Counted from the first letter of the whole stretch, positions 3,408-40,725 are shown. The stretch: 60,232 bases of DNA, filler included, from Sphacelaria rigidula (GCA_964200075.2; 10 parts of 10 records of this genome joined end to end with filler, not necessarily neighbours in it); one strand, 5' to 3'. The notes: generated by a model not told the origin, from the letters alone. Numbers and translations are program-made.

Positions 3408-5575
3408 TCAGTGCCCAGGGAAGAAATTCCCCCTGACGCCGACCCACTCGCCCCAGGTCGCGCGGAAGCAGGCTGCGGCACGCGTACTATAGTCTGGCGT
3501 CGTGGTGCAGCACTTCGTGGGGGTGATGGTTGTAGCGGAATCGGCTACGTTGGCGGAGGTGGAAGCGGCAACGTTGGCGGGGGCTGCGGCGGCTTGACCT
3601 GCTGCGGTGCTTGACGTTCTGATCGAAGCATCGACGGGACGGATGCTGGTATGGTGTCGCTCCGCCGGGACACTGGCACGAGTGGCAGCCCGTAGCGAGC
3701 GGGTCGTCTCTCGCCGTTGGTGCATCAGCAATCTGCCATGGGCCCGCCGGGGTGCCTCCAGCTGTACCGTCGCCGCTTCTGTCTTGCGCCATTTGCACTC
3801 AATCTCCTCCGTTTGGTGCGCTCGTGGTGGTTGACGGGCCTGCGACTCCCATGACTTCATCTCCATTTGCAGATCTCTGATTGTTTTCTGCACATTTTGT
3901 CCTTCCGTCTCCAAACGGCGTGTCATCATAGCCGCGGTCTCCTTCTTCTCCGCTGCGACCGCGATGGCCTTGTCACTATCACGCTGCAACTTCTCGGTTT
4001 CTTCTTTTGCCCTCCGCAATTCCTTGTAAAGAGATCGGGCCGCGTCTAGCCCTCCCTCAGCCGATTCTGCGCGTTCTCTCAAGTTCTTCACGTGGTGCCC
4101 CTGATTTTCAAGAGTTTTCTGCAGCCCGTTGATGGTGGAGTTCTTCGACTCCAAACCGACCTTTGCCGTCTCCAGGTTCCACTCCAGCTCCGCGATTTGA
4201 TTGACTTTTCTCGTGATCTGTACGGTGCTCTCTTCATTGGAAGCAGCGTGGTTGCTCTCCATCTCCCGCTGCGCCCTCACCGCGTCTTCCGGACGACTTT
4301 TGAGCCCACCCACCTCGCGTGCCAATATTTCCTCTCGCCTCTTGCATTCCTTGTCCGTAGCGTGTCGCGCCTCGTCTGACGAAGCCAACAAGTTGATAAA
4401 GTCGTCTCGCTGCTTCTCCCTAACTTTCAACGTCTCCTTCATGGAAGCGACGTCCGCCGTCCGCTTCCGTATCTCAGCCGTCAGCGCTGCATTTTTCTCT
4501 TGCAACTGATTGGCGATAACCTCCGTTTTGTGTGGTCGCTCCTCGGAGACCACGCCTGTTGTCTGTGTTTCTATCCTCGAGATGTGGGCTTGAAGCTTGG
4601 CTGTCCTTGCCCGTTCCTCCGACAATCGGGACTGAAGCGTCGACGTCAGGCTTTCCCGGGCTGCCAGGAGCGCCTGCGTCGATTCCACTTTCTCGTTGGA
4701 TTTCTGGCAGGCCCTGCGTATGGCTTCCTCTCGTTCTACCACAGCCCTGCCGCGTTCTTCCGCTCGCGCTTCGCGCATCCGCTTCAGCTCATCCATAGCC
4801 ACTTCTATAATTCGATCGGAGCTTCCCTTAGCGAACCCCGCGGCGGCATCGAAGGCTTTGATCACATCAACGTCACCGAAGCCATGGTCGAGGATGGCGG
4901 CGGCGGGAGTACTGGCGGCAGCGGAGCTCGAATCATCCACCGTACTCGTCCCGATCGATTTTTCGTCGCCCACATCCGACGTAGCCCCAAAGGCGGAGTG
5001 CATGCCCGGCGATCCCGGCGATGACTGTGGACAACCCTCTGCATCACCTGTTGGCGACGACGAACAGGTGCGTCGGAGATCCCTCCGCTCTGGTCTACAA
5101 CAGCAGCAGGTGCCGAGAGACCGCCAGCTTCCATCGCCACCACCGGTGACGGCACCGGCGACGTGTGGGCAGTGTTAATCGTGATATCTTCATTCTCCTG
5201 AACGCGACCCTTGCTCTCAGATGGGGATGAGCATCCCCCTTCAGTCATCCTCTCTGCAGTGCCGTCGTCGCGGAGGGCGGGGCTAACTTTGCCTTGACTT
5301 GACGACCCCGGTGGCGGCGATGTCGCACGCGCTATAGTGTCAACGGTGGCCTTGATGTTATTCGACTTGGCGGCTCGAGGAGACTGTAACTGTAGGAGGG
5401 ACTGGCTCGTGCTGCTCGCTGTTTCAGAAGCAGCCGTGTTGACGGCATATGCGGCACGTGCACGGGGTGAGCTGAGCTGGCTGGCTGTTGCGGCCCCGCG
5501 AGCCTCGGCGGCGACAATCACGCCGTCCAGGGCTCTCTCCAGTGACTCGATTCCCTGTGCGCACGCCGGAAGCAC
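3408..5575 (-). pseudogene. Large exon of a Ser/Pro/Ala-rich plus long coiled-coil protein, broken by frameshift(s)
   Basis: ORFs 4862-5575 and 3408-5003 overlap in different frames near 5050-5080; about 300 aa of E/K/R/Q/A-rich heptad-like sequence (MDELKRMREARAEE...LQMEMKSWE). No family recognised. Confidence 0.6.
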
Positions 5576-11005: not shown

Positions 11006-11262
11006 TAGTGATGCTACGGTAGGGGTGCACAAATATTTTCCGAGGTTATAATTGTTAGGAGCCCTTTATCTCATGCAAAACACGACCTTTGAAAATATGT
11101 GAGAGTACGCCAGGATTACTACTCCAATGTGCTGGAGATATCCCGAATGAATTTGCAAACGGGAATGCCCTGACCCATTTTTTTGTGCATCTAGAATCGT
11201 TAGGAGCCCTTGAACTAGACATAATTTCGCGAAAAAAGTGCACCCCTACTGTAGCATTGCTC
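11006..11262. mobile_element. MITE with GAG...CTC termini and 4-bp TSD (Sola-like)
   Basis: TIR (t)agtgatgctacggtaggggtgcac / gtgcacccctactgtagcattgctc; flanked by tcaa on both sides. Confidence 0.85.
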
Positions 11263-19026: not shown

Positions 19027-20151
19027 AACAACGTTTTCGTGGGATTGAGAGTAGAGGATACGTTCGAGAGCGAAAAGCGGTCATCAGTGAATGAGTCGTT
19101 TCAGTTCCGAAATGCCCCTCCACCAGGCACGATATGCCTTCTGTAGTAGGTTGCCACTGAGGCTCTTGATGTCCCCGAGTAGGATATCGACGTGTAGCTG
19201 TGAGCACACGCTAATGATGAAGTCAAACAAAAGCACGCACACGGAATGAAAAAATGGCTACAGTAGTGGGGTCCAACTATTCATTTTGAGCAATGCTACG
19301 GTAGGGGTGCACATTTTTCGCGAAATAATGTCTAGTTCAGGGGCTCCTACCGATTCTAGATGCACAAAAATATGGGTCGGGGCATCCCCATTTGCAAATT
19401 CATTCGGGGTATCCCCAGCACATTGGAGTAGTAGTCCTGGCGTACTTTCACATATTTTCATAGCTCGCGTTTTGCATGAGACAGAGGGCTCCTAACAATT
19501 TTAACCTCAGAAATTATTTGTGCACCCCTACCGTAACATCACTCTTTTGTGGCATTTTGTGATACCTTGGTAATTGGCGATTTTCCTGGGCTCTTTCCGC
19601 TTGCCGCCGCTGATCATATTGGGGATCCGAAGATGGTTGTATCCCCTGCACATTCCAAGAAAAACAAATTGGTCATGCTCAGTATTGAGTGACTTACGGG
19701 CTGACCTGTCATCGCGGGTCCTGCGACGTTTCAGCTCAGATTCTTACTCTTCGGTATCTCCGGTCAATCGAGCATGTCCCGGTCATATTTGTGAAGAAAT
19801 CTACAGTTTGATTTTTTTTTAATTCTACCCACTCATTGCACCAAAGCCGAAACACTGTGTTCCACGGTCAATAACACCCTCCTGGTAAACGGGGTATTTA
19901 CTCGTATCGCCCGATAACACCAACTGACGCTGACTTGGGCACTGTGTTTTGATGACGATCTGTTTATTGTACCGGAATATCTTTAATGTACCGGAATCTA
20001 TCGACGCTAGCAATTTCGAGTTCCAGCGAAGACTTGTACGCGAGGAAAATCCCAAAACATCCCTGAATAGTTAGACCGCCAATAGGTGAAGGCGAATTGC
20101 CGAAGCCACTCTCAATCAACGATCTACTCTCAATCTCACGAAAACGTTGTT
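19027..20151. mobile_element. MITE A copy containing nested MITE B (19261-~20082), which contains a Sola-like MITE (19288-19544)
   Basis: TIR aacaacgttttcgtgggattgagagtaga / tctactctcaatctcacgaaaacgttgtt, flanked by gaaa/gaaa; the two halves rejoin to match 12937-13253. Confidence 0.85.
19288..19544. mobile_element. Sola-like MITE with TTTT TSD; truncated copies at 36035-36100 and 60164-60232
   Basis: gagcaatgctacggtaggggtgcac / gtgcacccctaccgtaacatcactc; the empty site tattcattttgtggc at ~50471 confirms a 4-bp duplication. Confidence 0.88.
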
Positions 20152-27120: not shown

Positions 27121-28069
27121 GCCGCCTACGGCCTCAGGTTCCAGCCCGGCTTGCGGTTTAACGAAACCCGATGAACCTGGAATTTATCCTACTAGACGTT
27201 TTTCAACGCCCGTTTACGCCCTCGACCTTCAGTGCGCAGAAACGGGTATGCATATGGTAGGGCCTCGCCCTCTACCATATGATGCCGTCTTGGGTGGGTT
27301 AGCGCCCACTACCTCTGATTTTGTCGATTTCAGCATTTTCGGTACTCGCGCGAAGCTCTTCACGGAGACACCTTCGGTCACCCACCTAATCTCTGACAAC
27401 ACGCGCTCCCGGTCTGCCACCCGCACCACCCCCCCGAGTGCCCCGCCGCCACCGATAACACCTGAAAATTCCACGAGCCACGCAGCACCGGTCCCACGGA
27501 CCAACTCGCAACGCTCCGCGAACACTCCTGCAACGTGCACCACGCGCCGCGGACAATCTTCGCCGCGCACTGATACAGCCCCGCCGCCCATGACGGCGCC
27601 ACCGATATCTACCGCTCCCGAGCATGGAGCTGATGACTCAGCTCCTGCTCCCGGGGCAGATATTGACGTCGGCATTCCTGCCCTGTCGCCTATTCCCCCG
27701 CTGTTTACCCCACCATGTTTGGTCGGCTCGCCAGGGGAAGGTCAACTACGCGAGTTTTCCGCCAGCTACTCTCACCGCGATTGGGCTCGCGAACAAAACG
27801 CGGAACCGTTATGTCGCGCAGCCATCCGGTACTTTCAACTTGACTGTCCAGTCCCTTTTTCATCCACACTTCTGGCCCCGGTTGGCACACTGCCCCCGCT
27901 AGATATCTCTGACGTATACAAAATCGCGCGTAAAGGCACCCTTTTTACTACGGATGAAGGTGAACAACTACTCGTGCGTCGCTCCACGCCTTTGACGGGC
28001 GCAATTTCGGTCTCAACCACGGGACGCCACGCACGACTACTCGATGACGAACCAACGCACATATATGTC

Positions 28070-28396
28070 CCATTATTAATGCGCGCCTGGGTCATGGAAG
28101 GCTGCCACACAGACTTGTCATGTCACCTTGGCGTCACCCGCACCCTAGCGCTCTTGGAACGCTTGTACTGTTGGGTTGGTATGGAAATTTCCATCCGCTT
28201 CTGGATTCGGCGATGCTTCAAATGCCAAACCCACAAGACTTCACGGCAGACAGTACGCTGGCCAGTCATCTCTATGGATCTCCCCAACGCGCCAGGCCAC
28301 CCTGTGTCCTTTGGCTAAATTGGCCCTCTACCGTCCACAGGTCGCGGCAACACCTATATCTTACTCTTCACTGACCGCTTCAGCCGCCACGCGTCC

Positions 28397-30167: not shown

Positions 30168-30287
30168 GGGGGAAGCAAGACTTACAGGTGTTCGAGATGT
30201 GGTCTCCACGTAGATCGTGACGAGAACGGAGCTCGCAATATCTTGCTGAAGAGCCTGTTAGAATCCGGTGTTCATGTACTAAACTAG
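30168..30287 (+). CDS. tnpB: C-terminal 39 aa of a TnpB/Fanzor2 (IS607-type) RNA-guided nuclease, 5'-truncated by the contig edge
   Basis: Translates [39 protein letters not shown]: second CxxC of the zinc ribbon plus RuvC-III DRDxNGARNI. Absent from the supplied ORF track. Confidence 0.9.
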
Positions 30288-30408
30288 CGTCACTGAAAGG
30301 TGACTTTGAGGCCTAGCTCCTGGAGCACTGAATAAGTGCTCTTGCAGCAGTATTCTTTTGCTGAGAAGAGTAGAAGAGCGGTGTCGGGTAGATCAGGCTG
30401 TGTTTACC
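30288..30408 (+). ncRNA. Putative omegaRNA scaffold (~30288-30388) plus guide (~30389-30408)
   Basis: Hairpins gtcact-gaaa-ggtgac (30289-30304), gagcact-gaata-agtgctc (30323-30341) and tattctttt-gctg-agaagagta (30351-30372); closing pairings gctc/gagc and tttgaggcc/ggtgtcggg; located directly 3' of a TnpB-like ORF. Boundaries are inferred. Confidence 0.65.
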
Positions 30409-30457
30409 AAGAAGTAGACCTGCTTCCCTGTTTCCGACTACATCTCGAGATATTCTT

Positions 30458-31444
30458 CTAGGAAGCATAGCTTGCATTTGTAGCGAAATAGTTTACTGTA
30501 ATGATTTCCGTTGAGAGTGTCACTTTTAGCGGTTTTCTACTAGGCGCATCGACGGCTTGCTGGTAGTGCACCTGGGCTTTCAGAATAACACATGCCGCCG
30601 TGTACAACTCCACGTCTACAATGTCGCCCCCAAAATAGTAACACACTTCATCAATTCGCGGGGGCTTGTCTTCCCTGACATCCAGCCCCCACCTCTCAAA
30701 ACATTCTTCCATGTCACACCTCAGCAGTCTCTGTCGCCTCGTTCGAGCGTGGAAATGGGGTGCTAAGATTAGCGCCACGCGTTCGGGCCGCATTGTAAAT
30801 AGGTACTTCCCTACCCAACAGTTTTTGGAGTCGTGCAATTTGGCCAGCACTCGGCCGAAAGGTAGCTTCAGTAGTCGGGATACCTCGTCACAAAGATAAA
30901 CCCACTGATCGGATAGTTGGCGTTTTGGAAGGTCGTACATTTGCCCTGTGAAGAAGGGGTTAAGACGCTTCAATACCAGTCGATCCACCTCGTCCAGAAA
31001 GGACAAGACCCTATTACCCTCAGAATTGGCAACCTTGTCGAACAAGTGCTTTTCATGCTCAACGCCTTCCACTAGACTCCACGCTTCATGCTCAAGCGCA
31101 CCCGTCTCCTCCAAGAACACGGCAGACCTTGGACGCGCTTTGGCGACGGAAGTTTTGGGCGATTTTACCGGGCAGGGGGAAGACGATCTCGACCAGGGTC
31201 TTGGCGTCCGCCACCGGAGTAAGCTGTCCCTTGCCGTTGATCCTAGTTTTGATGAGAGTGGGGCAGCCTGCCCCACCCTCAGCCCCAAGCTCTGGAAAGT
31301 CCTCCTTCAGTCGGCGAAAAGCTGTGTTGGCAGAACTTGCATCACACCCTAGGACCATCCTTACTACATCAAACACCTTCCCTTTTGAGTAGCCGTGTCC
31401 ACGCGGATGGTGGCATTTTCTACGTTGTCGATGATGCTGTCCAT
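30458..31444 (-). pseudogene. Intronless giant-virus-type gene: KilA-N/Bro-N-like N-terminal domain plus unknown C-terminal domain, two frameshifts
   Basis: ATG 31444 MDSIIDNVENATIRVDTATQKG, 1-bp deletion at ~31378, then VFDVVRMVLGCDASSANTAFRRL...INGKGQLTPVADAKTLVEIVFPLPGKIAQNFRRQSASKVCRVLGGD, shift at ~31100 into the frame ending at 30458. Confidence 0.65.
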
Positions 31445-31534
31445 TTTAATGGGTAGTAATATGTGTCGAGCTCTTGGTTTCTTCTCGTGTCTACAAGCAC
31501 GACACATTATATTTGTACACGTCGAAGCGAGTGT

Positions 31535-32135
31535 GACTTCCCTTGCCTCGACATGATGCACACAGTGAAACGTGTCACACATGTTGTTCCATAACAATTC
31601 GTTGTACCCACGCTTGTCACACTTGTCACACATTTGGACTTCCCTTGCCTCAACATGATGCACATTGCGAAACATGTCACACATATCGTTCCATAGCAAT
31701 TCGTTTTACTCACACTTGTCACACTTGTCACACATTTGGACTTCTCTTGCCTCGACATGATGCACATTGCGAAACATGTCACACATATCGTTCCATAGGA
31801 GTTATTTGAGTTTGCACTCGTCAATGTTCATACCCGACGTTGGCTGAGACTTCGACCGAAAACAAGACGCAGATGTGGTGCACAACGACTTCGAAATAAT
31901 GATGCACACAATCGGACTTCGCTTGCCTCGGCATGATGCACATGGTGAAACATGTTACACATGTGGTTCAATCGGAGTTGTTTTCCCTCACACTTGTCAT
32001 ACTTGTCGTTCAATCGGAGTTGTTTTTCCTCACACTTGTTACACATGTCGTTGTTTTGGAGTTTGTGTGACCTACACTTATCACACATGTCGTTGTGTCG
32101 GAGTTCTCTCTATTTCACACATGTCGTTCCATCGA
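31535..32135. repeat. Tandem array 1: 102-bp units (starting 31535, 31637, 31739) plus degenerate and 42-bp sub-units
   Basis: gacttcccttgcctcgacatgatgcaca...tgtcacacat...gttccatagcaattcgtt...cacttgtcacacttgtcacac. Confidence 0.92.
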
Positions 32136-32408
32136 AGTTTGTTTTAGCTTTACGGGCAGGAGGAAGACGATCTCGACCAGGGTCTTGGCGTCCGCCACCG
32201 GGGTAAGCTTGCCTTTGCCGTTGATTCGGAGTTGACCGCACATTGCGGTCAACTCAGGGAAGTCATCTTTCAGTCGGCAAAGAGCTGTGTTTGCATGGCC
32301 CGAGGTACACGAGAGCACCATTCGGATCACATCGAGAGCGCTTCCCTTTTGAGTAGCCGTGTCCACGCGGATGGTGGCATTTTCTACGTTGTCGATGATG
32401 CTGTCCAT
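32115..32408 (-). pseudogene. Second, 3'-truncated copy of the KilA-N/Bro-N-like gene
   Basis: MDSIIDNVENATIRVDTATQKGSALDVIRMVLSCTSGHANTALCRLKDDFPEL...INGKGKLTPVADAKTLVEIVFLLP, then runs into array 1. Confidence 0.7.
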
Positions 32409-32521
32409 TTGAAGTGGAATAATTTGTGTGGTTTGTGTTCCAACTCTTGGTTTCTCCTCGTGTATACAATCACCACACATTTTATTTGTACACGTCGAAG
32501 CGAGTGTGTCCTAGGTAACGA

Positions 32522-32982
32522 TATGTCACACAATTGGACTTCCCTTGCCTCGACATCATGCACACAGTGAAACGTGTCACACATGTTGTTCCATAGCAAT
32601 TCGTTTTGGTTACACTTGTTGCACTTGTCACACTTGCCCTTCCGTAACAATTCGTTTCGGTCACACTTGTCTCACATTCGGACGTCGTTGGCCTTGACAT
32701 CATGGCATGGAATGCGAATACCTCATGTAACGCATATTGTGCACGTCATTCAAAAACAGTTCTTTCAGACCACACATGTCACACATGTCTTGATCATAGA
32801 CCACTCAGTAGTACATGTAGCACACGTGTCGTTCCGAGAGAGTTTGTGCGGGTTACACTTGTCTCACATTTGGCCTTGACATCATGTCCATGGAATGCGA
32901 ATACCTCATGTTACGCATGACCACAGCACACGTGTCGTTCCGTAGGAGTTTGTTTTTGTTACATTTGTCACAAATTCGGACT
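32522..32982. repeat. Tandem array 2, degenerate units of the same family
   Basis: tgtcacacaattggacttcccttgcctcgacatcatgcacacag...; repeated ttggccttgacatcatg(g/t)catggaatgcgaatacctcatgt. Confidence 0.85.
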
Positions 32983-33148
32983 AAAAATCACGGATGAAAC
33001 CCGACAGAAACTCCTTCAGCTACACAAAAGTGTAACATGTACAGTATCGCAACTCGACTATTTTTGACGTTTTGGACGAGTTTCGCACGCACACGACAAG
33101 TTGACACTCCGAAAGTCTTCGAGAGTTTAACCGTCACGAACGACGTCG

Positions 33149-35062
33149 CTAGAGGTTGCGAACAATTGACTTTTTCCCGTTAACGATGTATCCTTGACCG
33201 TACGAGTAGGGGTCTCCATTTATGCTGATTCGATCATTTGCCTCATCATACGTCACTACTAGGTTTGTCGTACCAGTATATATTGTAGACGTCTGCCCGG
33301 AACCCAATGATGGTGAGAACGGTAACATAAAATTGTCGATACCGTTAGACGCAGTTGCATCATGTGTGTCCCCCAACTTGACGAACGTAGCTCGCAGTAC
33401 ACCTGTTGGAGTCGTCAGTACTATCGATTCACCCGTGGAAACTAGATCGTTCAGGTGTTGATCGATATGTTGAAAGTCGCTCACACTCAGAGAGCTTAGG
33501 TCTGTTGTGCCAGCAGAATCATGGAAATCGGTAATGTCGTAGTTAGCAGCCAAATTTTGTAGAGTGTTGGCCGTCTTAGATTTTCCATGCTTCACAAAAG
33601 GACCACCATCGGACGAGTAAAGTGTGACTTCGTATTCTGTGTCTGGTGTCAACGACTCAATTGTGGTACTGGTTTGTGATGTGAACTGTGCCCCTTCAGA
33701 TCCGTCGGTGCCCGTGTATTCTACTCTGTAACTCGCCCCAGGTAACTCTGTCCAACTGAGCTCAATTAAAAACACGCCAGGTACCGCCAATAGGCCTAGG
33801 ACGTCCAGTGTGGATGTGTCTTTGGAGACATAAAGGACGTTAGTCTCGTACAACACTGACTCTATGATAACCACCCAATCGAACCCTGTGGCTGCCGACG
33901 TGTTACCAAAGACAATTGGCCAGACAGCAATGGTGGGAGAAAATTCCCAGTAGAGTAGATTGAGCACGCCATTTGATTCGAATGTGGAAGTATCGGTCGT
34001 GGAAAAAACGGTCCCTAAATTGGTATTGTAGGTTATACCATACGATGCATCCAGTAGAATCTGCGATGATGAGTGGCCCGATTGGAAGGCGGCGTATGTG
34101 GTGACACCATTCATGGCTACTATGCAGTTCAAAAAGATCGTGGAGGTTGCTGTGCCGACGAGTCCCGACGTTACGTCCCCTGTCATGTAGTTTATCCAGT
34201 GTGTACACGTACCACTCCCGCTCACGGTTGCTGCAATGGAAGCAGCCGTACCACCGGTGATATTACCTATACTGCTGTTCATCATGTAATTGACAGAGCC
34301 ATTAGAAAGTGTCCCAAAAATGCCTCCGGATGTACCCGATCCTCCTTGAATTGGGCCTCTCATGGCATTCAACACATGTGAAACTGTGTCGCCAATACAC
34401 GTTCCGTATACACCTCCTACGTTGCTGCCCGTATTCACGATACCATTTGTGAAGTTGGCAATATTTCGAATATGCGACGTGTTCGCACCCGACCCGTACC
34501 CCGAGAACCCTATGATCCCACCCGTGTTTGCCACTCCTTCGAATCTGTCGATGGTACCTCCAAGTGTGATGTTTTCAAATGTTCCACCACCGGTGTATGA
34601 AAATAGACCACCTAGACTGTTGGCTGTGGCGGTTATCTCCGTCCCTGGTGCGAAGTCGGCCGTGATATTATAGAAGCTAGAGTTTGTGTTGTGGGCAGAC
34701 AAAAAGCACCCATCGTTCGTACCTATTGCCCTCCATACACCATTCAATACCACATTTTGCACGGTGGCACCGTTCGTGGTTCCGAATAGGCCTGTTCCCT
34801 TGCCAGATGGAGGCACACAGTTCCAGTTCGATATTGCAAACCCTTGTCCGTCGTAGCTCCCCGAAAAAGGTGAAATGGGCACTATATTCGTGGAGTCAGA
34901 CTGTAGATCGATATCGATGGTCTGGATGTAAGAAGCAGTTTTGTAATCCGAAGGGGGGGATCCCGTGTTGGCAAATACAGACCCTGAGTTCATGATCTGC
35001 AGAAGGTGATTCTTACTCGAGACCTCGTACGAACCGTTGCTAAAAACCCAAAGGACTGACAT
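33149..35062 (-). CDS. Intronless 637-aa protein: GLUG/beta-helix-like Gly/Thr/Asn-rich region + fibronectin type III domain + C-terminal domain; probably viral
   Basis: ATG at 35062 after an AT-rich leader; YIQTIDIDL...PISPFSGSYDGQGFAISNW...GLFG...GGIIG/GGVYG/GGIFG; FN3-like IELSWTELPGASYRVEYT...TIESLTPDTEYEVTLYS. Confidence 0.85.
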   Translation of the reverse strand: MSVLWVFSNGSYEVSSKNHLLQIMNSGSVFANTGSPPSDYKTASYIQTIDIDLQSDSTNIVPISPFSGSYDGQGFAISNWNCVPPSGKGTGLFGTTNGATVQNVVLNGVWRAIGTNDGCFLSAHNTNSSFYNITADFAPGTEITATANSLGGLFSYTGGGTFENITLGGTIDRFEGVANTGGIIGFSGYGSGANTSHIRNIANFTNGIVNTGSNVGGVYGTCIGDTVSHVLNAMRGPIQGGSGTSGGIFGTLSNGSVNYMMNSSIGNITGGTAASIAATVSGSGTCTHWINYMTGDVTSGLVGTATSTIFLNCIVAMNGVTTYAAFQSGHSSSQILLDASYGITYNTNLGTVFSTTDTSTFESNGVLNLLYWEFSPTIAVWPIVFGNTSAATGFDWVVIIESVLYETNVLYVSKDTSTLDVLGLLAVPGVFLIELSWTELPGASYRVEYTGTDGSEGAQFTSQTSTTIESLTPDTEYEVTLYSSDGGPFVKHGKSKTANTLQNLAANYDITDFHDSAGTTDLSSLSVSDFQHIDQHLNDLVSTGESIVLTTPTGVLRATFVKLGDTHDATASNGIDNFMLPFSPSLGSGQTSTIYTGTTNLVVTYDEANDRISINGDPYSYGQGYIVNGKKSIVRNL

Positions 35063-35285
35063 TTGTTTGTACTTTAAGTAACCGTGATAAAAAAATATCC
35101 AAGAAAGGTAAATTGGTCTCGTCACACGTTGGTATTGTGCCGCCTAGCCGCACCACTTCGATGGCGGCACAACACCGAGGATGCTGTCCATTTGGAGGGG
35201 AGTAATTTGTGTCTAGCTTGGTTTCTTCTCGTGTCTACAAGCACCACGCATTTCATTTGAAGCGAGCGTGTCCTAGGTAACGATA

Positions 35286-35830
35286 TGTCACATAATTGGA
35301 CTTCCCTTGCCTCGACATCATGCACACAATTGTTCCATAGCAACTCGTTTCAATCACACTTGCCATACGTGTCACACAATTGGACTTCCCTTGCCTCGAC
35401 ATCATGCACACAGTTGTTCCATAGCATTTCGTTTTAGTCACACTTGTCATACTTGTCACACAAACTTCCCTTGCCTCGACATCATGCACACAGTTGTTCC
35501 GTAGCAACTCGTTTCAATTCCCTTGCCTCGACATCATGCACACAGTTGTTCCATAGCATTTCGTTTTAGTTACACTTGTCATACTTGTCACACAATTGGA
35601 CTTCCCTCGCCTCGACATCATGCACACAGTTGTTCCATAGCAACTCGTTTCAATCACATTTGTCATACTTGTCACACAATTGGACTTCCCTTGCCTCGAC
35701 ATCATGCACACAGTTGTTCCATAGCATTTCGTTTTAGTCACACTTGTCATACTTGTCACACGTTGCTCAGGGGTTCTACAATTGTCACAGTTGTCAAACA
35801 TGTCGCACATGTCGTTGCTCAGGGGTTCTA
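35286..35830. repeat. Tandem array 3: six 84-bp-type units alternating between two variants
   Basis: gacttccc recurs at 35299, 35383, 35599 and 35683; variants caactcgtttcaatcac and catttcgttttagtcac alternate. Confidence 0.93.
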
Positions 35831-36248
35831 TGTCGATGCTTATTGGGGTCGAGGTAGACGACTTAGGTGACGCAGGTCACTGTACCTTGTAAAGTAGCAT
35901 CCCGTACGATAAGAAGACTGGTGTGATGTTTTGTTGTTTTCGGGTTTGGTTTCGGTATATTTTTTTTTCTCGAGAGGTTTTCTTGGATTTGTGCCTGGCG
36001 TTGTTGCCGCGGGAGGCTTGAGTCTGCCGCACGTGAGTGATGCTACGGTAGGGGTAGAGAAATAATTTCTGAGATTAGAATTGTTAGGAGCCCCTTATCT
36101 NNNNNNNNNNNNNNNNNNNNNNNNNNNNNNNNNNNNNNNNNNNNTTAATTAATTAANNNNNNNNNNNNNNNNNNNNNNNNNNNNNNNNNNNNNNNNNNNN
36201 GCGTAGGTGCGTTGTTGCTGGGGGCGGTGAGGGGGGGGGCGTGGGGGT

Positions 36249-36287
<39 letters not shown>

Positions 36288-37086
36288 TAGGTCCTGCTGG
36301 GCTCAACCTAGAAAAGAGAGTATGACCTTACTTTTTTTGTTGGAACACTACGCGGCTACAAATGCAACGCGCTGGATAACACCGAGCATATCAATCAACT
36401 GTGACGATTTTCCGATAACCCCATCATTGTATCTATGAAATCTACCAGGTACACAACCCCGATTATATATATTGTCGATGCCGCAGGTACCCTCCGTAAT
36501 GCGGTACATCTTGCGCATTACCCTCACATACTCAACAGAGTTTACCGAATGGTCGTAAACAATGGTACATTACTAGATCTTGGAATGAACCCCGCTAGTT
36601 AGATTTTAGGAGCAGCTGGCAGTCTCAACAGCTCCTGGCTCGTACAGGACGTGTGTTAGCCCAACGCACACCTTGCCTAGAGCACCCTCTCCACCCCCTC
36701 CGTCGCGGGCCCGAGTGTTGTCAGGGTTAGGGTTATAGTGTTAGTGTTGGGGTTATAGTTAGTGTTACGGTAGGCGGGGCCTCAATTTTAGTACCAGCCA
36801 AAGTTTCCGACCATTTGGGAAACAGCCCTTCCAAGTACCTGTAAGTCATTTTCCACCAAGTGCCGAGAGTTGGAATGGAACAAGAACGAACTGCGCAAAA
36901 AAAGTCATTAGACACTCAGTTTTCCCATACAACACGGACGTTTTCTAGGCCTCGACACTGACATGGGTTCGTCCAAACGGCCTGGATTGACATCCATTAG
37001 ACATCACCGCTTTCGCCTCGCATCAGCGACGTGTTGAGTCTTTGTAACATCCATTTTTCGTGTCAAATCCTGGTCGTTGAAAGGCT

Positions 37087-40680: not shown

Positions 40681-40725
40681 CTAACCCTAACCCTAACCCT
40701 AACCCTAACCCTAACCCTAACCCTA
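40681..40725 (+). repeat. Interstitial (CCCTAA)n telomere-like repeat, ~7 units; degenerate TTAGGG-like tract at 36722-36768
   Basis: ctaaccctaaccctaa... directly visible. Confidence 0.9.

What the first reader, a model, noticed from the sequence alone, without database searches (positions are those of the whole stretch)
31435..35830. Thrice-repeated module: TGTCACA-rich tandem array + shared ~100-bp leader + MDSI start of a KilA-N/Bro-N-like gene
Seen: on the minus strand each of three related arrays (31535-32135, 32522-32982, 35286-35830) is followed by the same leader (cactcgcttc...gagaagaaaccaag...aaATGGACAGCATC) and an ATG at 31444, 32408 or 35191. Copy 1 continues into a long gene, copy 2 stops after the putative DNA-binding domain, and copy 3 stops after a few codons just upstream of the unrelated 637-aa gene. 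Units are packed with TGTCACA/TGTTACA-like motifs at 9-bp spacing. Inference: a mobile or recombinogenic cis-element paired with a cognate DNA-binding protein, analogous to baculovirus hr repeats next to bro genes (origin, enhancer or recombination hotspot). It could donate its promoter and N-terminal domain to different cargo. I know of no description of this module.
Basis: partly seen in the sequence, partly recalled or inferred. Interest (0 to 1): 0.75.

Follow-up and report, generated by a model that had tools for sequence, protein, structure and literature searches.

The report
Broken algal-virus genes hiding palindromes
Three broken copies of a DNA-binding gene from a seaweed virus, each behind a repeat array, lie in a decayed viral insertion; the arrays look like local by-products, but the gene family hides a mirror-image DNA site in its own code that the protein may well bind.

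Summary
The three arrays, shared leader and three starts are real and not a misassembly. They lie on one 5.9-kb contig of a decayed phaeovirus-type insertion. All three gene copies are broken. Copy 1 is no long gene: it shifts frame after codon 23 and abuts half of an unrelated gene. Copy 2 ends inside the domain. The family (EsV-1-211/FsV type, ~340 aa) has a winged-helix, KilA-N/Bro-N-like fold, a predicted homodimer, and forms truncated clusters in phaeoviruses. The 637-aa GLUG/FN3 gene is a recurring neighbour with its own start, not cargo. Arrays lie near 4 of 37 family hits versus 7 of 97 control genes; related arrays were not found elsewhere. New here: codons 51-59 form a 12+3+12 DNA palindrome, perfect in copy 2. 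It is kept by compensatory change across the family (19 of 43 DNA rows; 110 proteins), and its inner codons change in step with the predicted recognition helix. Best reading: a dimeric regulator with an operator inside its own gene, multiplied and shuffled by recombination. Binding is inferred, not shown. The arrays hold no copy of this site.

The parts
30168..36100 (.). Whole contig (G000:C23373): decayed phaeovirus-type endogenous viral segment
   Evidence: Spacers; place; viral homologues
36032..36100 (.). High-copy host repeat at the contig end, compatible with integration in host DNA
   Evidence: Very high depth and many loose ends; two more copies in the window at 11007-11071 and 19486-19544
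35286..35830 (-). Array 3: mostly 84-bp units with 52- and 48-bp variants; non-coding
35192..35285 (-). Leader 3
   Evidence: (D8, D11)
35144..35191 (-). Copy 3: 15-codon remnant of the gene start; similarity to copy 2 fades after about 50 bases
33149..35062 (-). 637-aa gene with GLUG-like repeats and an FN3 domain; intact, own start; recurring neighbour of the family in phaeovirus-type DNA
   Evidence: Pfam fn3 E=2e-5; Atlas GLUG/fn3; 45% identity over residues 1-637 to a gene beside a family cluster in L175; 30-31% partial matches in L050
32522..32982 (-). Array 2: degenerate; includes two copies (183 bp apart) of an element also found just downstream of the paralogue on G000:C25608
   Evidence: D13; score 93, shuffle maximum 37
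32409..32521 (-). Leader 2
32115..32408 (-). Copy 2 (P0001, 97 aa): family N-domain to about residue 86, then runs into array 1; lacks the helix at 87-104 that forms the predicted dimer interface
32229..32255 (.). Perfect 12+3+12 palindrome inside copy 2, codons 51-59 (ELTAMCGQL), just before the RINGKG hairpin; candidate operator
31535..32135 (-). Array 1: distal 42-bp units (about 31950-32135), an irregular middle, proximal 102-bp units
   Evidence: the distal block fits the family protein profile weakly (2 of 200 shuffles; 1 of 12 regions tested)
31445..31534 (-). Leader 1
31101..31444 (-). Copy 1: pseudogene; frame shifts after codon 23, family similarity ends at 31101
31253..31281 (.). 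Different palindrome (14-bp arms, one mismatch, 1-base loop) at the same loop in copy 1, off the family register
30680..31099 (-). 3' half of an unrelated gene, joined to copy 1 by a deletion-type junction; the frame runs on to 30458
   Evidence: 57% identity to P0190 residues 183-321; P0191
30168..30546 (.). 379 bp shared (98.7%) with the end of G000:C1802, a phaeovirus-type contig; about three-fold depth

Best explanation
The segment is a decayed piece of an integrated phaeovirus holding a local cluster of paralogues of a bro-like multigene family (EsV-1-211/FsV type). SHOWN: all three copies are broken; their 5' ends (array, leader, first 23 codons) have been copied and homogenised while codons 24-60 differ; the family forms such clusters elsewhere. 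Intact members are ~340-aa proteins with an N-terminal winged-helix domain (predicted) that dimerises through the helices after the wing (predicted). Their genes carry a 12+3+12 DNA palindrome at codons 51-59 whose inner bases vary with compensatory change (shown) and change in step with helix residues 35-45 (shown as a correlation). INFERRED: the dimer binds this palindrome in its own gene, for autoregulation or self-marking, so helix plus site form a ~90-bp specificity cassette that recombination swaps between conserved flanks. The arrays are upstream intergenic DNA amplified by slippage and unequal exchange and carried along with the gene starts. They act as recombination substrates and not as a mobile promoter donor. 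My odds by step: decayed insertion with paralogue cluster 0.9; palindrome under DNA-level selection 0.9; read by the protein itself 0.55; arrays not the cognate site 0.6.
For: FAMILY AND CONTEXT: 45 longer homologues, those named by sources from brown algae, xanthophytes and Feldmannia species virus; 2,455 representatives; structural matches to EsV-1-211, FirrV-1-A34/B3/P1 and FsV proteins. 14 matches in 4 clusters in G001; clusters also on C122, L175 and L176, the last with a duplicated leader.

FOLD AND DIMER: model pLDDT 91; DdrC-N Z 9.1 (rmsd 3.9, 107 aligned), Mbp1 Z 6.5 (3.9, 78), Dachshund Z 6.3. Homodimer of P0004: score 0.74, best control 0.01, runs agree in at least 73% of contacts, pLDDT at least 69; the mark was reached by 21 of 30 solved homodimers and 0 of 23 single chains.

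MOSAIC: copy 1 vs copy 2 identical at 68 of 68 bases in codons 1-23, 72 of 111 in 24-60, 71 of 78 in 61-86; other paralogues match codons 1-23 at only 53-55 of 64-68.

PALINDROME: 19 of 43 DNA rows pair at 8 or more of 12 positions in this register, 0 in seven shifted registers; inner six pair 3.40 with their own arm vs 1.93 permuted, 0 of 5000. 280 of 516 pairs vs 218 in synonymous shuffles, 0 of 2000. In 110 distinct protein domains, middle-base complementarity is 51.5 vs 30.5 and 54.5 vs 39.3 at the two inner in-register codon pairs (0 of 1000 each), with no excess at the two outer in-register pairs or six off-register pairs. No G-T over A-C bias (12:9).

CO-CHANGE: in sister pairs only helix 35-45 tracks loop change (rho 0.46, P=0.005, 36 pairs); five other segments do not, including the nearer, equally variable 46-50 (rho -0.06) (first pass).
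Against: No binding data. 24 of 43 DNA rows fall below 8 of 12 pairs, and copy 1's palindrome is off register. The co-change rests on 36 pairs, 1 of 6 segments tested, and on 13 pairs without indels (P=0.049); helix and loop lie in one block that can be exchanged together, and may touch in the structure. No Pfam Bro-N, KilA-N or similar match in 90 members. Mbp1 Z 6.5 is within the range that can mean only a common arrangement. The dimer resembles solved DdrC and may pass from memory. The nearest paralogue (C2548) has an array at the same 91-bp distance and the G001 repeat region is bracketed by two clusters, which this reading treats as partly incidental. The idea to look for the palindrome came from earlier AI notes, which are no independent support.
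Confidence: 0.55

Rival explanations
1. The arrays are functional cis-elements of hr or iteron type (origin, enhancer or partition site), read by a family member or another viral protein, and the family is kept beside them.
For: Direct 9-bp-spaced motifs and 42/84-bp periods. C2548 paralogue with a 158-bp array 91 bp upstream and C2963 with a 157-bp array 151 bp upstream. All 51 matches to the 172-bp unit of G001 lie at 60.4-72.8 kb, among and between 2 of its 4 family clusters. Per cluster 4 of 19 (P=0.08) and 5 of 19 at 500 bp (P=0.04). PMC13236599 cites a possible internal origin in FsV-158 (its position was not seen).
Against: Per gene 4 of 37 vs 7 of 97 controls (P=0.50); clusters are larger targets than single ORFs. 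Units of different loci are not significantly alike. Arrays occur without the family on C1802 and far from it on C2431. Copies 1 and 2 have different helices but the same proximal array.
Confidence: 0.25
2. The palindrome is a hairpin or recombination signal (or an RNA stem) and not an operator; it drives loop duplications and cassette exchange.
For: Duplications within the loop in several members (C2548, L175, alignment A1). Headless loop fragments upstream of genes in L180, L184 and L194. The mosaic between copies 1 and 2.
Against: A plain hairpin does not predict co-change with helix 35-45 and not with 46-50, nor a fixed 3-base loop in codon register. No G-U bias for an RNA stem. The predicted two-fold protein suits a dyad site.
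Confidence: 0.25
3. The arrays are fossils of the gene's own loop codons, multiplied by unequal recombination and since decayed.
For: Array 1 begins where copy 2 breaks. Its distal 42-bp block fits the family protein profile at positions 31-71 in the gene's sense (2 of 200 shuffles) and resembles the QLRING codons (15 of 18; matrix score reached by 5 of 200 shuffles).
Against: 1 of 12 regions tested. The 84- and 102-bp units, array 2 and the arrays of other loci do not fit, and the DNA profile found no array though it found both positive controls. A 15-of-18 match also arises at an unrelated codon in array 2.
Confidence: 0.15
4. A mobile module that donates its promoter and N-terminal domain to different cargo genes.
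For: The module stands upstream of two unrelated genes: the 637-aa gene and the P0190-like half gene. 2 of 90 family members carry a T5orf172 domain, so the domain does shuffle.
Against: No copy on another contig or in viral contigs. No inverted repeats in the contig. The 637-aa gene has its own start and recurs beside the family. The copy-1 junction gives no readable fusion.
Confidence: 0.05
5. The triplication is a misassembly.
For: Fragmented short-contig assembly; no single unitig spans the contig and the array interiors are not bridged.
Against: Unitigs bridge all gene, leader and array junctions at even depth; the copies differ by 35% in the middle.
Confidence: 0.02

Closest known systems
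EsV-1-211 / FirrV-1-A34, B3, P1 / Feldmannia species virus uncharacterised proteins (phaeovirus multigene family)
   Same: Same family by sequence and predicted structure; occurs in clusters with truncated members. A 2026 preprint (10.64898/2026.08.29.747986, passage seen) mentions an antirepressor/MSV199-like domain widespread in phaeoviruses; whether it is this family was not tested.
   Different: All three copies here are broken. The intragenic palindrome and the shared array-leader block were not found described in the searches run.
Baculovirus bro genes and hr repeats
   Same: Multicopy, plastic genes with an N-terminal DNA-binding domain, shared 5' fragments between neighbours, and variable regions flanked by repeats (PMC4758234, passages seen).
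   Different: hrs are dispersed families with 28-30-bp palindromic cores. These arrays are local, direct, without significant hairpins. No Pfam Bro-N match.
KilA-N/APSES (Mbp1, Bqt4) and Deinococcus DdrC N-terminal winged helix
   Same: Predicted fold: DdrC Z 9.1 and 8.1, Mbp1 Z 6.5, Bqt4 Z 4.6; dimer like DdrC.
   Different: 7-14% identity; no sequence-level match in PDB or Pfam. DdrC is recalled as not sequence-specific.
Operators inside coding sequence (lac O2 in lacZ, gal OI in galE, parS in spo0J; recalled, also named)
   Same: A dyad site embedded in codons and read by a dimeric regulator (inferred here).
   Different: The same theme is noted for Bro-N, ORF6N, RhuM and MSV199 genes in unchecked earlier notes of this scan.
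The ~173-bp repeat region of Feldmannia species virus (name and papers recalled; unit seen)
   Same: Tandem array beside family genes, with unit fragments between the genes.
   Different: Unit not significantly similar to the window's units; large inverted blocks, against small direct arrays here.

Membership tests
EsV-1-211/FsV phaeovirus family | Sequence homology of the N-terminal domain | tested here: met
   53-66% identity to G001 members; 45 homologues; BFVD matches
EsV-1-211/FsV phaeovirus family | Intact ~330-350-aa protein with coiled coil and C-terminal domain | tested here: not met
   All three copies end at or before residue ~108; they are remnants
Phaeovirus endogenous viral element | Intronless genes with phaeovirus homologues, next to host DNA | tested here: met
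   host repeat at the contig end; overlap with viral-type contig C1802
Phaeovirus endogenous viral element | Core genes (capsid, polymerase) or att ends on the same piece | not tested
   The contig is 5.9 kb; none among its ORFs; no search for att ends was run
Bro-N (PF02498) | Pfam profile match | tested here: not met
   0 of 90 members at E<=0.05; 0 of 32 at E<=0.1
Bro-N (PF02498) | Feature-level likeness | tested here: inconclusive
   Atlas: 26 of 30 hits Bro-N, best of them 0.91; uncalibrated for parts of proteins
KilA-N/APSES | Winged-helix fold as in Mbp1 | tested here: inconclusive
   Z 6.5, rmsd 3.9, 78 aligned; DdrC scores higher; Mbp1 was top row for the full-length model at Z 5.9, tied with coiled coils
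KilA-N/APSES | Pfam profile match | tested here: not met
Baculovirus hr-type element | Related arrays dispersed over the genome | tested here: not met
   Only on C23373 in G000, apart from one sub-element on C25608; DNA search in G000 gives lower bounds
Baculovirus hr-type element | Long imperfect palindrome at the core of each unit | tested here: not met
   0 inverted repeats of 20 or more; fold z-scores 0.31, 0.11, -0.21 for three array pieces
Baculovirus hr-type element | Origin or enhancer activity | not testable with these tools
   Needs experiment
Self-encoded intragenic operator | Palindrome in fixed codon register kept by compensatory change beyond protein constraint | tested here: met
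Self-encoded intragenic operator | Site changes with the predicted recognition helix | tested here: met
   rho 0.46, P=0.005, 36 pairs, 1 of 6 segments; modest sample
Self-encoded intragenic operator | Copy of the site upstream at the promoter | tested here: not met
   Own arm matches the 700 bases upstream no better than other members' arms in 18 rows with flank
Self-encoded intragenic operator | Direct binding and regulation | not testable with these tools
   Needs EMSA or reporter assay
Mobile element | Dispersed copies, terminal repeats, mobility gene | tested here: not met

The most novel reading that the evidence does not exclude
Phaeoviruses and related giant viruses run a self-addressing system. 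Each paralogue of this dimeric winged-helix family carries its own operator in a swappable ~90-bp helix-plus-site cassette, and neighbouring repeat arrays (such as the inverted repeat region of G001 and the arrays here) are multimerised landing sites that make these clusters origins, partition sites or latency switches of the provirus.
Probability: 0.15. Interest if true: 0.8.

Novelty: new variant of a known kind. Interest (0 to 1): 0.5.

Why it matters
Phaeoviruses integrate, stay latent and reactivate (PMC13236599, abstract start and passages seen), and how they regulate this or start replication is open. This large uncharacterised family now has a predicted fold, a predicted dimer and a specific 27-bp candidate site per paralogue, so a specificity code can be tested with short oligonucleotides. 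It also extends the intragenic-palindrome theme, noted in this scan for Bro-N, ORF6N, RhuM and MSV199 genes, to a family with no Pfam model. The thrice-repeated module itself is of lesser interest: a decayed local triplication.

Tried and rejected
Exact scans for two array words and for the palindrome-plus-RING pattern found 0; the one extra match in G000 was not a family gene.

Motif likeness by eye between the window units and the C2548 and G001 units did not pass shuffles. Arrays as coding repeats: the one frame that is open within regular units shows mostly non-synonymous change (2:16 and 3:7), another frame has 10:8 but stops in the units, and 52-bp and 80-bp units break frame. Arrays as stores of the palindrome arm: no excess. 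No Rfam match. No hairpin excess in array units; leader 1 folds at z -2.7, 1 of 4 pieces, not followed up.

Foldseek against PDB gave no E<=0.001 match; the profile search of PDB sequences gave 0; PHROGs gave only an unnamed family in 19 of 90. The tree of 28 domains does not resolve whether copies 1 and 2 are sisters. No RNA holder listed, so expression is untested.

A genome-wide array-versus-gene map of G001 for all repeat types could not be made; only the 172-bp unit was mapped. The 335,593-bp record could be examined only over 10.9 kb. Three papers on KilA-N/Bro-N domain shuffling and the FsV-158 genome were not held, so their content is recalled only. No supplements were read; supplementary gene tables of PMC11890097 and PMC13236599 may name this family.

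Full report
WHAT THE WINDOW IS. The window is ten unrelated contigs of about 5.9 kb joined by N spacers. The finding lies in 30168-36100, contig C23373 of G000, a 244-Mb assembly in 27,214 contigs. The right end of the contig is a very high-copy repeat. The left 379 bp match the end of C1802 at 98.7%, a contig of intronless genes of giant-virus type.

THE OBSERVATION. The three starts, leaders and arrays exist at the stated places. TGTNACA is about 60-fold enriched in the arrays (22 in 1,607 bp against 13 in 57,825 bp), and 17 of 43 motif gaps are 9 bp. The arrays are mosaics of a few sub-blocks of 32-52 bp and do not behave as coding repeats. Unitigs from runs X1 and X2 (one sample, possibly the source sample) bridge every gene, leader and array junction without differences at even depth; array interiors are not bridged. 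Misassembly is therefore unlikely.

CORRECTIONS. Copy 1 is a pseudogene: read from its ATG it stops after 26 codons, family similarity continues in another frame and ends at 31101, and what follows is the 3' half of an unrelated gene (57% to P0190 residues 183-321). Copy 2 ends near residue 86, inside the domain. Copy 3 is a 15-codon remnant. None can make the full protein.

THE FAMILY. P0001 has 45 longer homologues, mostly 330-350 aa; those with source names come from brown algae, xanthophytes and Feldmannia species virus. A profile finds 2,455 representatives. Structure search names EsV-1-211, FirrV-1-A34, B3, P1 and several FsV proteins. Members cluster and are often truncated: 14 matches in four places in G001, the 154,641-bp record, and clusters on C122, L175 and L176. 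In L176 the leader is duplicated with the gene. The N-domain model (pLDDT 91) matches DdrC-N (Z 9.1, rmsd 3.9, 107 aligned), Mbp1 (Z 6.5, rmsd 3.9, 78 aligned), Dachshund, Ski and Bqt4. The Atlas points to Bro-N, but no Pfam Bro-N or KilA-N match was found in 90 members. It works like a KilA-N/Bro-N-type DNA-binding domain; formal membership is not shown. An intact homologue (P0004) is predicted to be a homodimer: score 0.74, best control 0.01, runs agree in at least 73% of contacts, pLDDT at least 69; the mark was reached by 21 of 30 solved homodimers and 0 of 23 single chains, and a pass may come from likeness to solved dimers. The interface lies mainly in residues 75-119, most of which copy 2 lacks.

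THE 637-AA GENE. It has an FN3 domain and GLUG-like features. In L175 two homologues (45% and 31%, full length from residue 1-2) flank a three-gene family cluster. In L050 two partial homologues lie 2-5 kb from a family gene. It is a recurring neighbour with its own start, not cargo.

ARE ARRAYS TIED TO THE FAMILY? The window's arrays and leader were found only on C23373 and not in viral contigs. One element of array 2 recurs just downstream of the paralogue on C25608. For a link: the nearest paralogue, on C2548, has a 158-bp array 91 bp upstream, the same distance as copy 1; C2963 has a 157-bp array upstream; in G001 all 51 matches to the 172-bp unit lie at 60.4-72.8 kb, among and between two of the four clusters. 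Against: over 25 loci outside the window, arrays lie within 300 bp of 4 of 37 family hits and 7 of 97 control ORFs (P=0.50); per cluster 4 of 19 (P=0.08), and 5 of 19 at 500 bp (P=0.04), with clusters being larger targets. Units of different loci are not significantly alike, and C1802 has a 1.1-kb array with no family gene seen on the contig. A general pairing is not shown; a link in one subfamily is not excluded.

RECOMBINATION. Copies 1 and 2 are identical at 68 of 68 bases in codons 1-23, at 72 of 111 in codons 24-60 and at 71 of 78 in codons 61-86. Other paralogues match codons 1-23 at 53-55 of 64-68. The 5' ends were homogenised, or the middle block was exchanged. The middle block holds both helices of the predicted helix-turn-helix and the loop described next.

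THE INTRAGENIC PALINDROME. Earlier AI notes on other Bro-N-type genes prompted a look; the tests are my own. Copy 2 holds a perfect palindrome, GAGTTGACCGCA-ATG-TGCGGTCAACTC, at 32229-32255, codons 51-59; copy 1 holds a different one at 31253-31281, off this register. The pattern search gave 47 rows, of which I dropped 4 non-family matches. Of the 43 left, 19 pair at 8 or more of 12 positions in this register and none in seven shifted registers. The inner six bases pair with their own arm (3.40) more than with permuted arms (1.93; 0 of 5000), and all four pair types occur at two inner positions. The total exceeds synonymous shuffles (280 vs 218 of 516; 0 of 2000). In 110 distinct protein domains, from 186 of the 191 proteins held, codon middle bases are complementary at the two inner in-register pairs (51.5 vs 30.5 and 54.5 vs 39.3; 0 of 1000 each), not in excess at the two outer, nearly invariant pairs, and not at six off-register pairs. 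Mismatches show no G-T bias (12 G-T, 9 A-C, 21 other). In sister pairs, change in the inner codons tracks change in helix residues 35-45 (rho 0.46, P=0.005, 36 pairs; 0.55, P=0.049 in 13 pairs without indels). It does not track five other segments held out in the same way, including the nearer and equally variable 46-50. Top single columns were 37, 38 and 42. More than half of the DNA rows lack a good palindrome, some being decayed copies or other subfamilies.

DO THE ARRAYS HOLD THE SITE? No. An arm matrix finds no excess in any of the three arrays, and own arms match upstream DNA no better than other members' arms. Only the distal 42-bp block of array 1 fits the protein profile weakly (2 of 200 shuffles; 1 of 12 regions), so it may be a fossil of loop codons. 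Headless loop fragments do lie upstream of genes in L180, L184 and L194.

MECHANISM. Shown: decay, local triplication, 5' homogenisation, the palindrome and its covariation. Predicted: fold and dimer. Inferred: the dimer binds the palindrome in its own gene, so helix and site travel as one short cassette between conserved flanks, which lets many paralogues keep separate addresses. The arrays are amplified upstream DNA that favours unequal exchange. Whether they once served as origin or enhancer is open (0.25).

LITERATURE. Seen as passages only: PMC13236599 (possible internal origin in FsV-158, cited), PMC11890097 (BRO and KilA-N labels among EVE genes), PMC12993054 (nothing on such repeats in the passages shown), PMC4758234 (bro and hr plasticity), 10.64898/2026.08.29.747986. 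Other papers were seen as search listings only. Searches for the family, the repeats and an intragenic palindrome showed no description, in a library that lacks most subscription journals. Three classic papers were not held. lac O2, gal OI and parS are recalled and also named.

VERDICT. The module as described is a real but decayed local triplication in a phaeovirus-type insertion, and the mobile promoter-donor reading is not supported. The lasting result is the family-wide coding palindrome that varies with the recognition helix. Novelty: new variant of a known kind. Interest 0.5.

Noticed in passing
G001:C1:60417-76000 (L048): The whole 172-bp repeat region (two large blocks in opposite orientation) is bracketed by two clusters of this family, with unit fragments between the genes of the left cluster.
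   Followed up: partly
G000:C2548:7496-7940 (L030): 158-bp x2.8 array between the nearest paralogue (91 bp away) and a divergent ORF; the paralogue itself is broken near residue 206 and its loop carries a duplicated left arm.
   Followed up: partly
G000:C1802:7600-8720 (L239, L234): 1.1-kb array with 42-, 136- and 141-bp periods between a collagen-like gene and a clamp-loader-like gene (named by eye); no family gene seen on the contig. The 42-bp period recurs in window array 1.
   Followed up: partly
G000:C25608:2840-2886 and 3690-3754 (L034): Two copies of the array-2 element downstream of a two-domain paralogue whose start also reads MDSI.
   Followed up: partly
G000:C2431:8893-14144 (L032, L033): Several long arrays with 54-bp and 83-bp periods on a contig that also holds a family gene 5.6 kb or more away.
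   Followed up: no
G000:C2963:1677-2102 (L237): 157-bp x2.6 array upstream of a decayed family gene; three weak matches to the palindrome-arm matrix (1 of 100 shuffles).
   Followed up: partly
L180:5700-5860, L184:1729-1790, L194:640-810: Headless fragments of the loop region, some with variant arms, upstream of intact family genes.
   Followed up: partly
L052:6644-7082: 160-bp x2.7 array with 10-bp-spaced GGCGACA motifs 675 bp downstream of a family gene in a giant-virus contig.
   Followed up: no
window 31445-31535: Leader 1 folds better than shuffles (z -2.7; 1 of 200).
   Followed up: no
window 31060-31100: An 11-bp direct repeat at the junction between copy 1 and the half gene suggests a template-switch or microhomology join.
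   Followed up: no
window 27248-28318: 356-aa ORF with an Integrase_H2C2 domain, probably an LTR retroelement, on another contig.
   Followed up: no
window 36726-36771 and 40681-40725: Short telomere-like repeats on other contigs.
   Followed up: no
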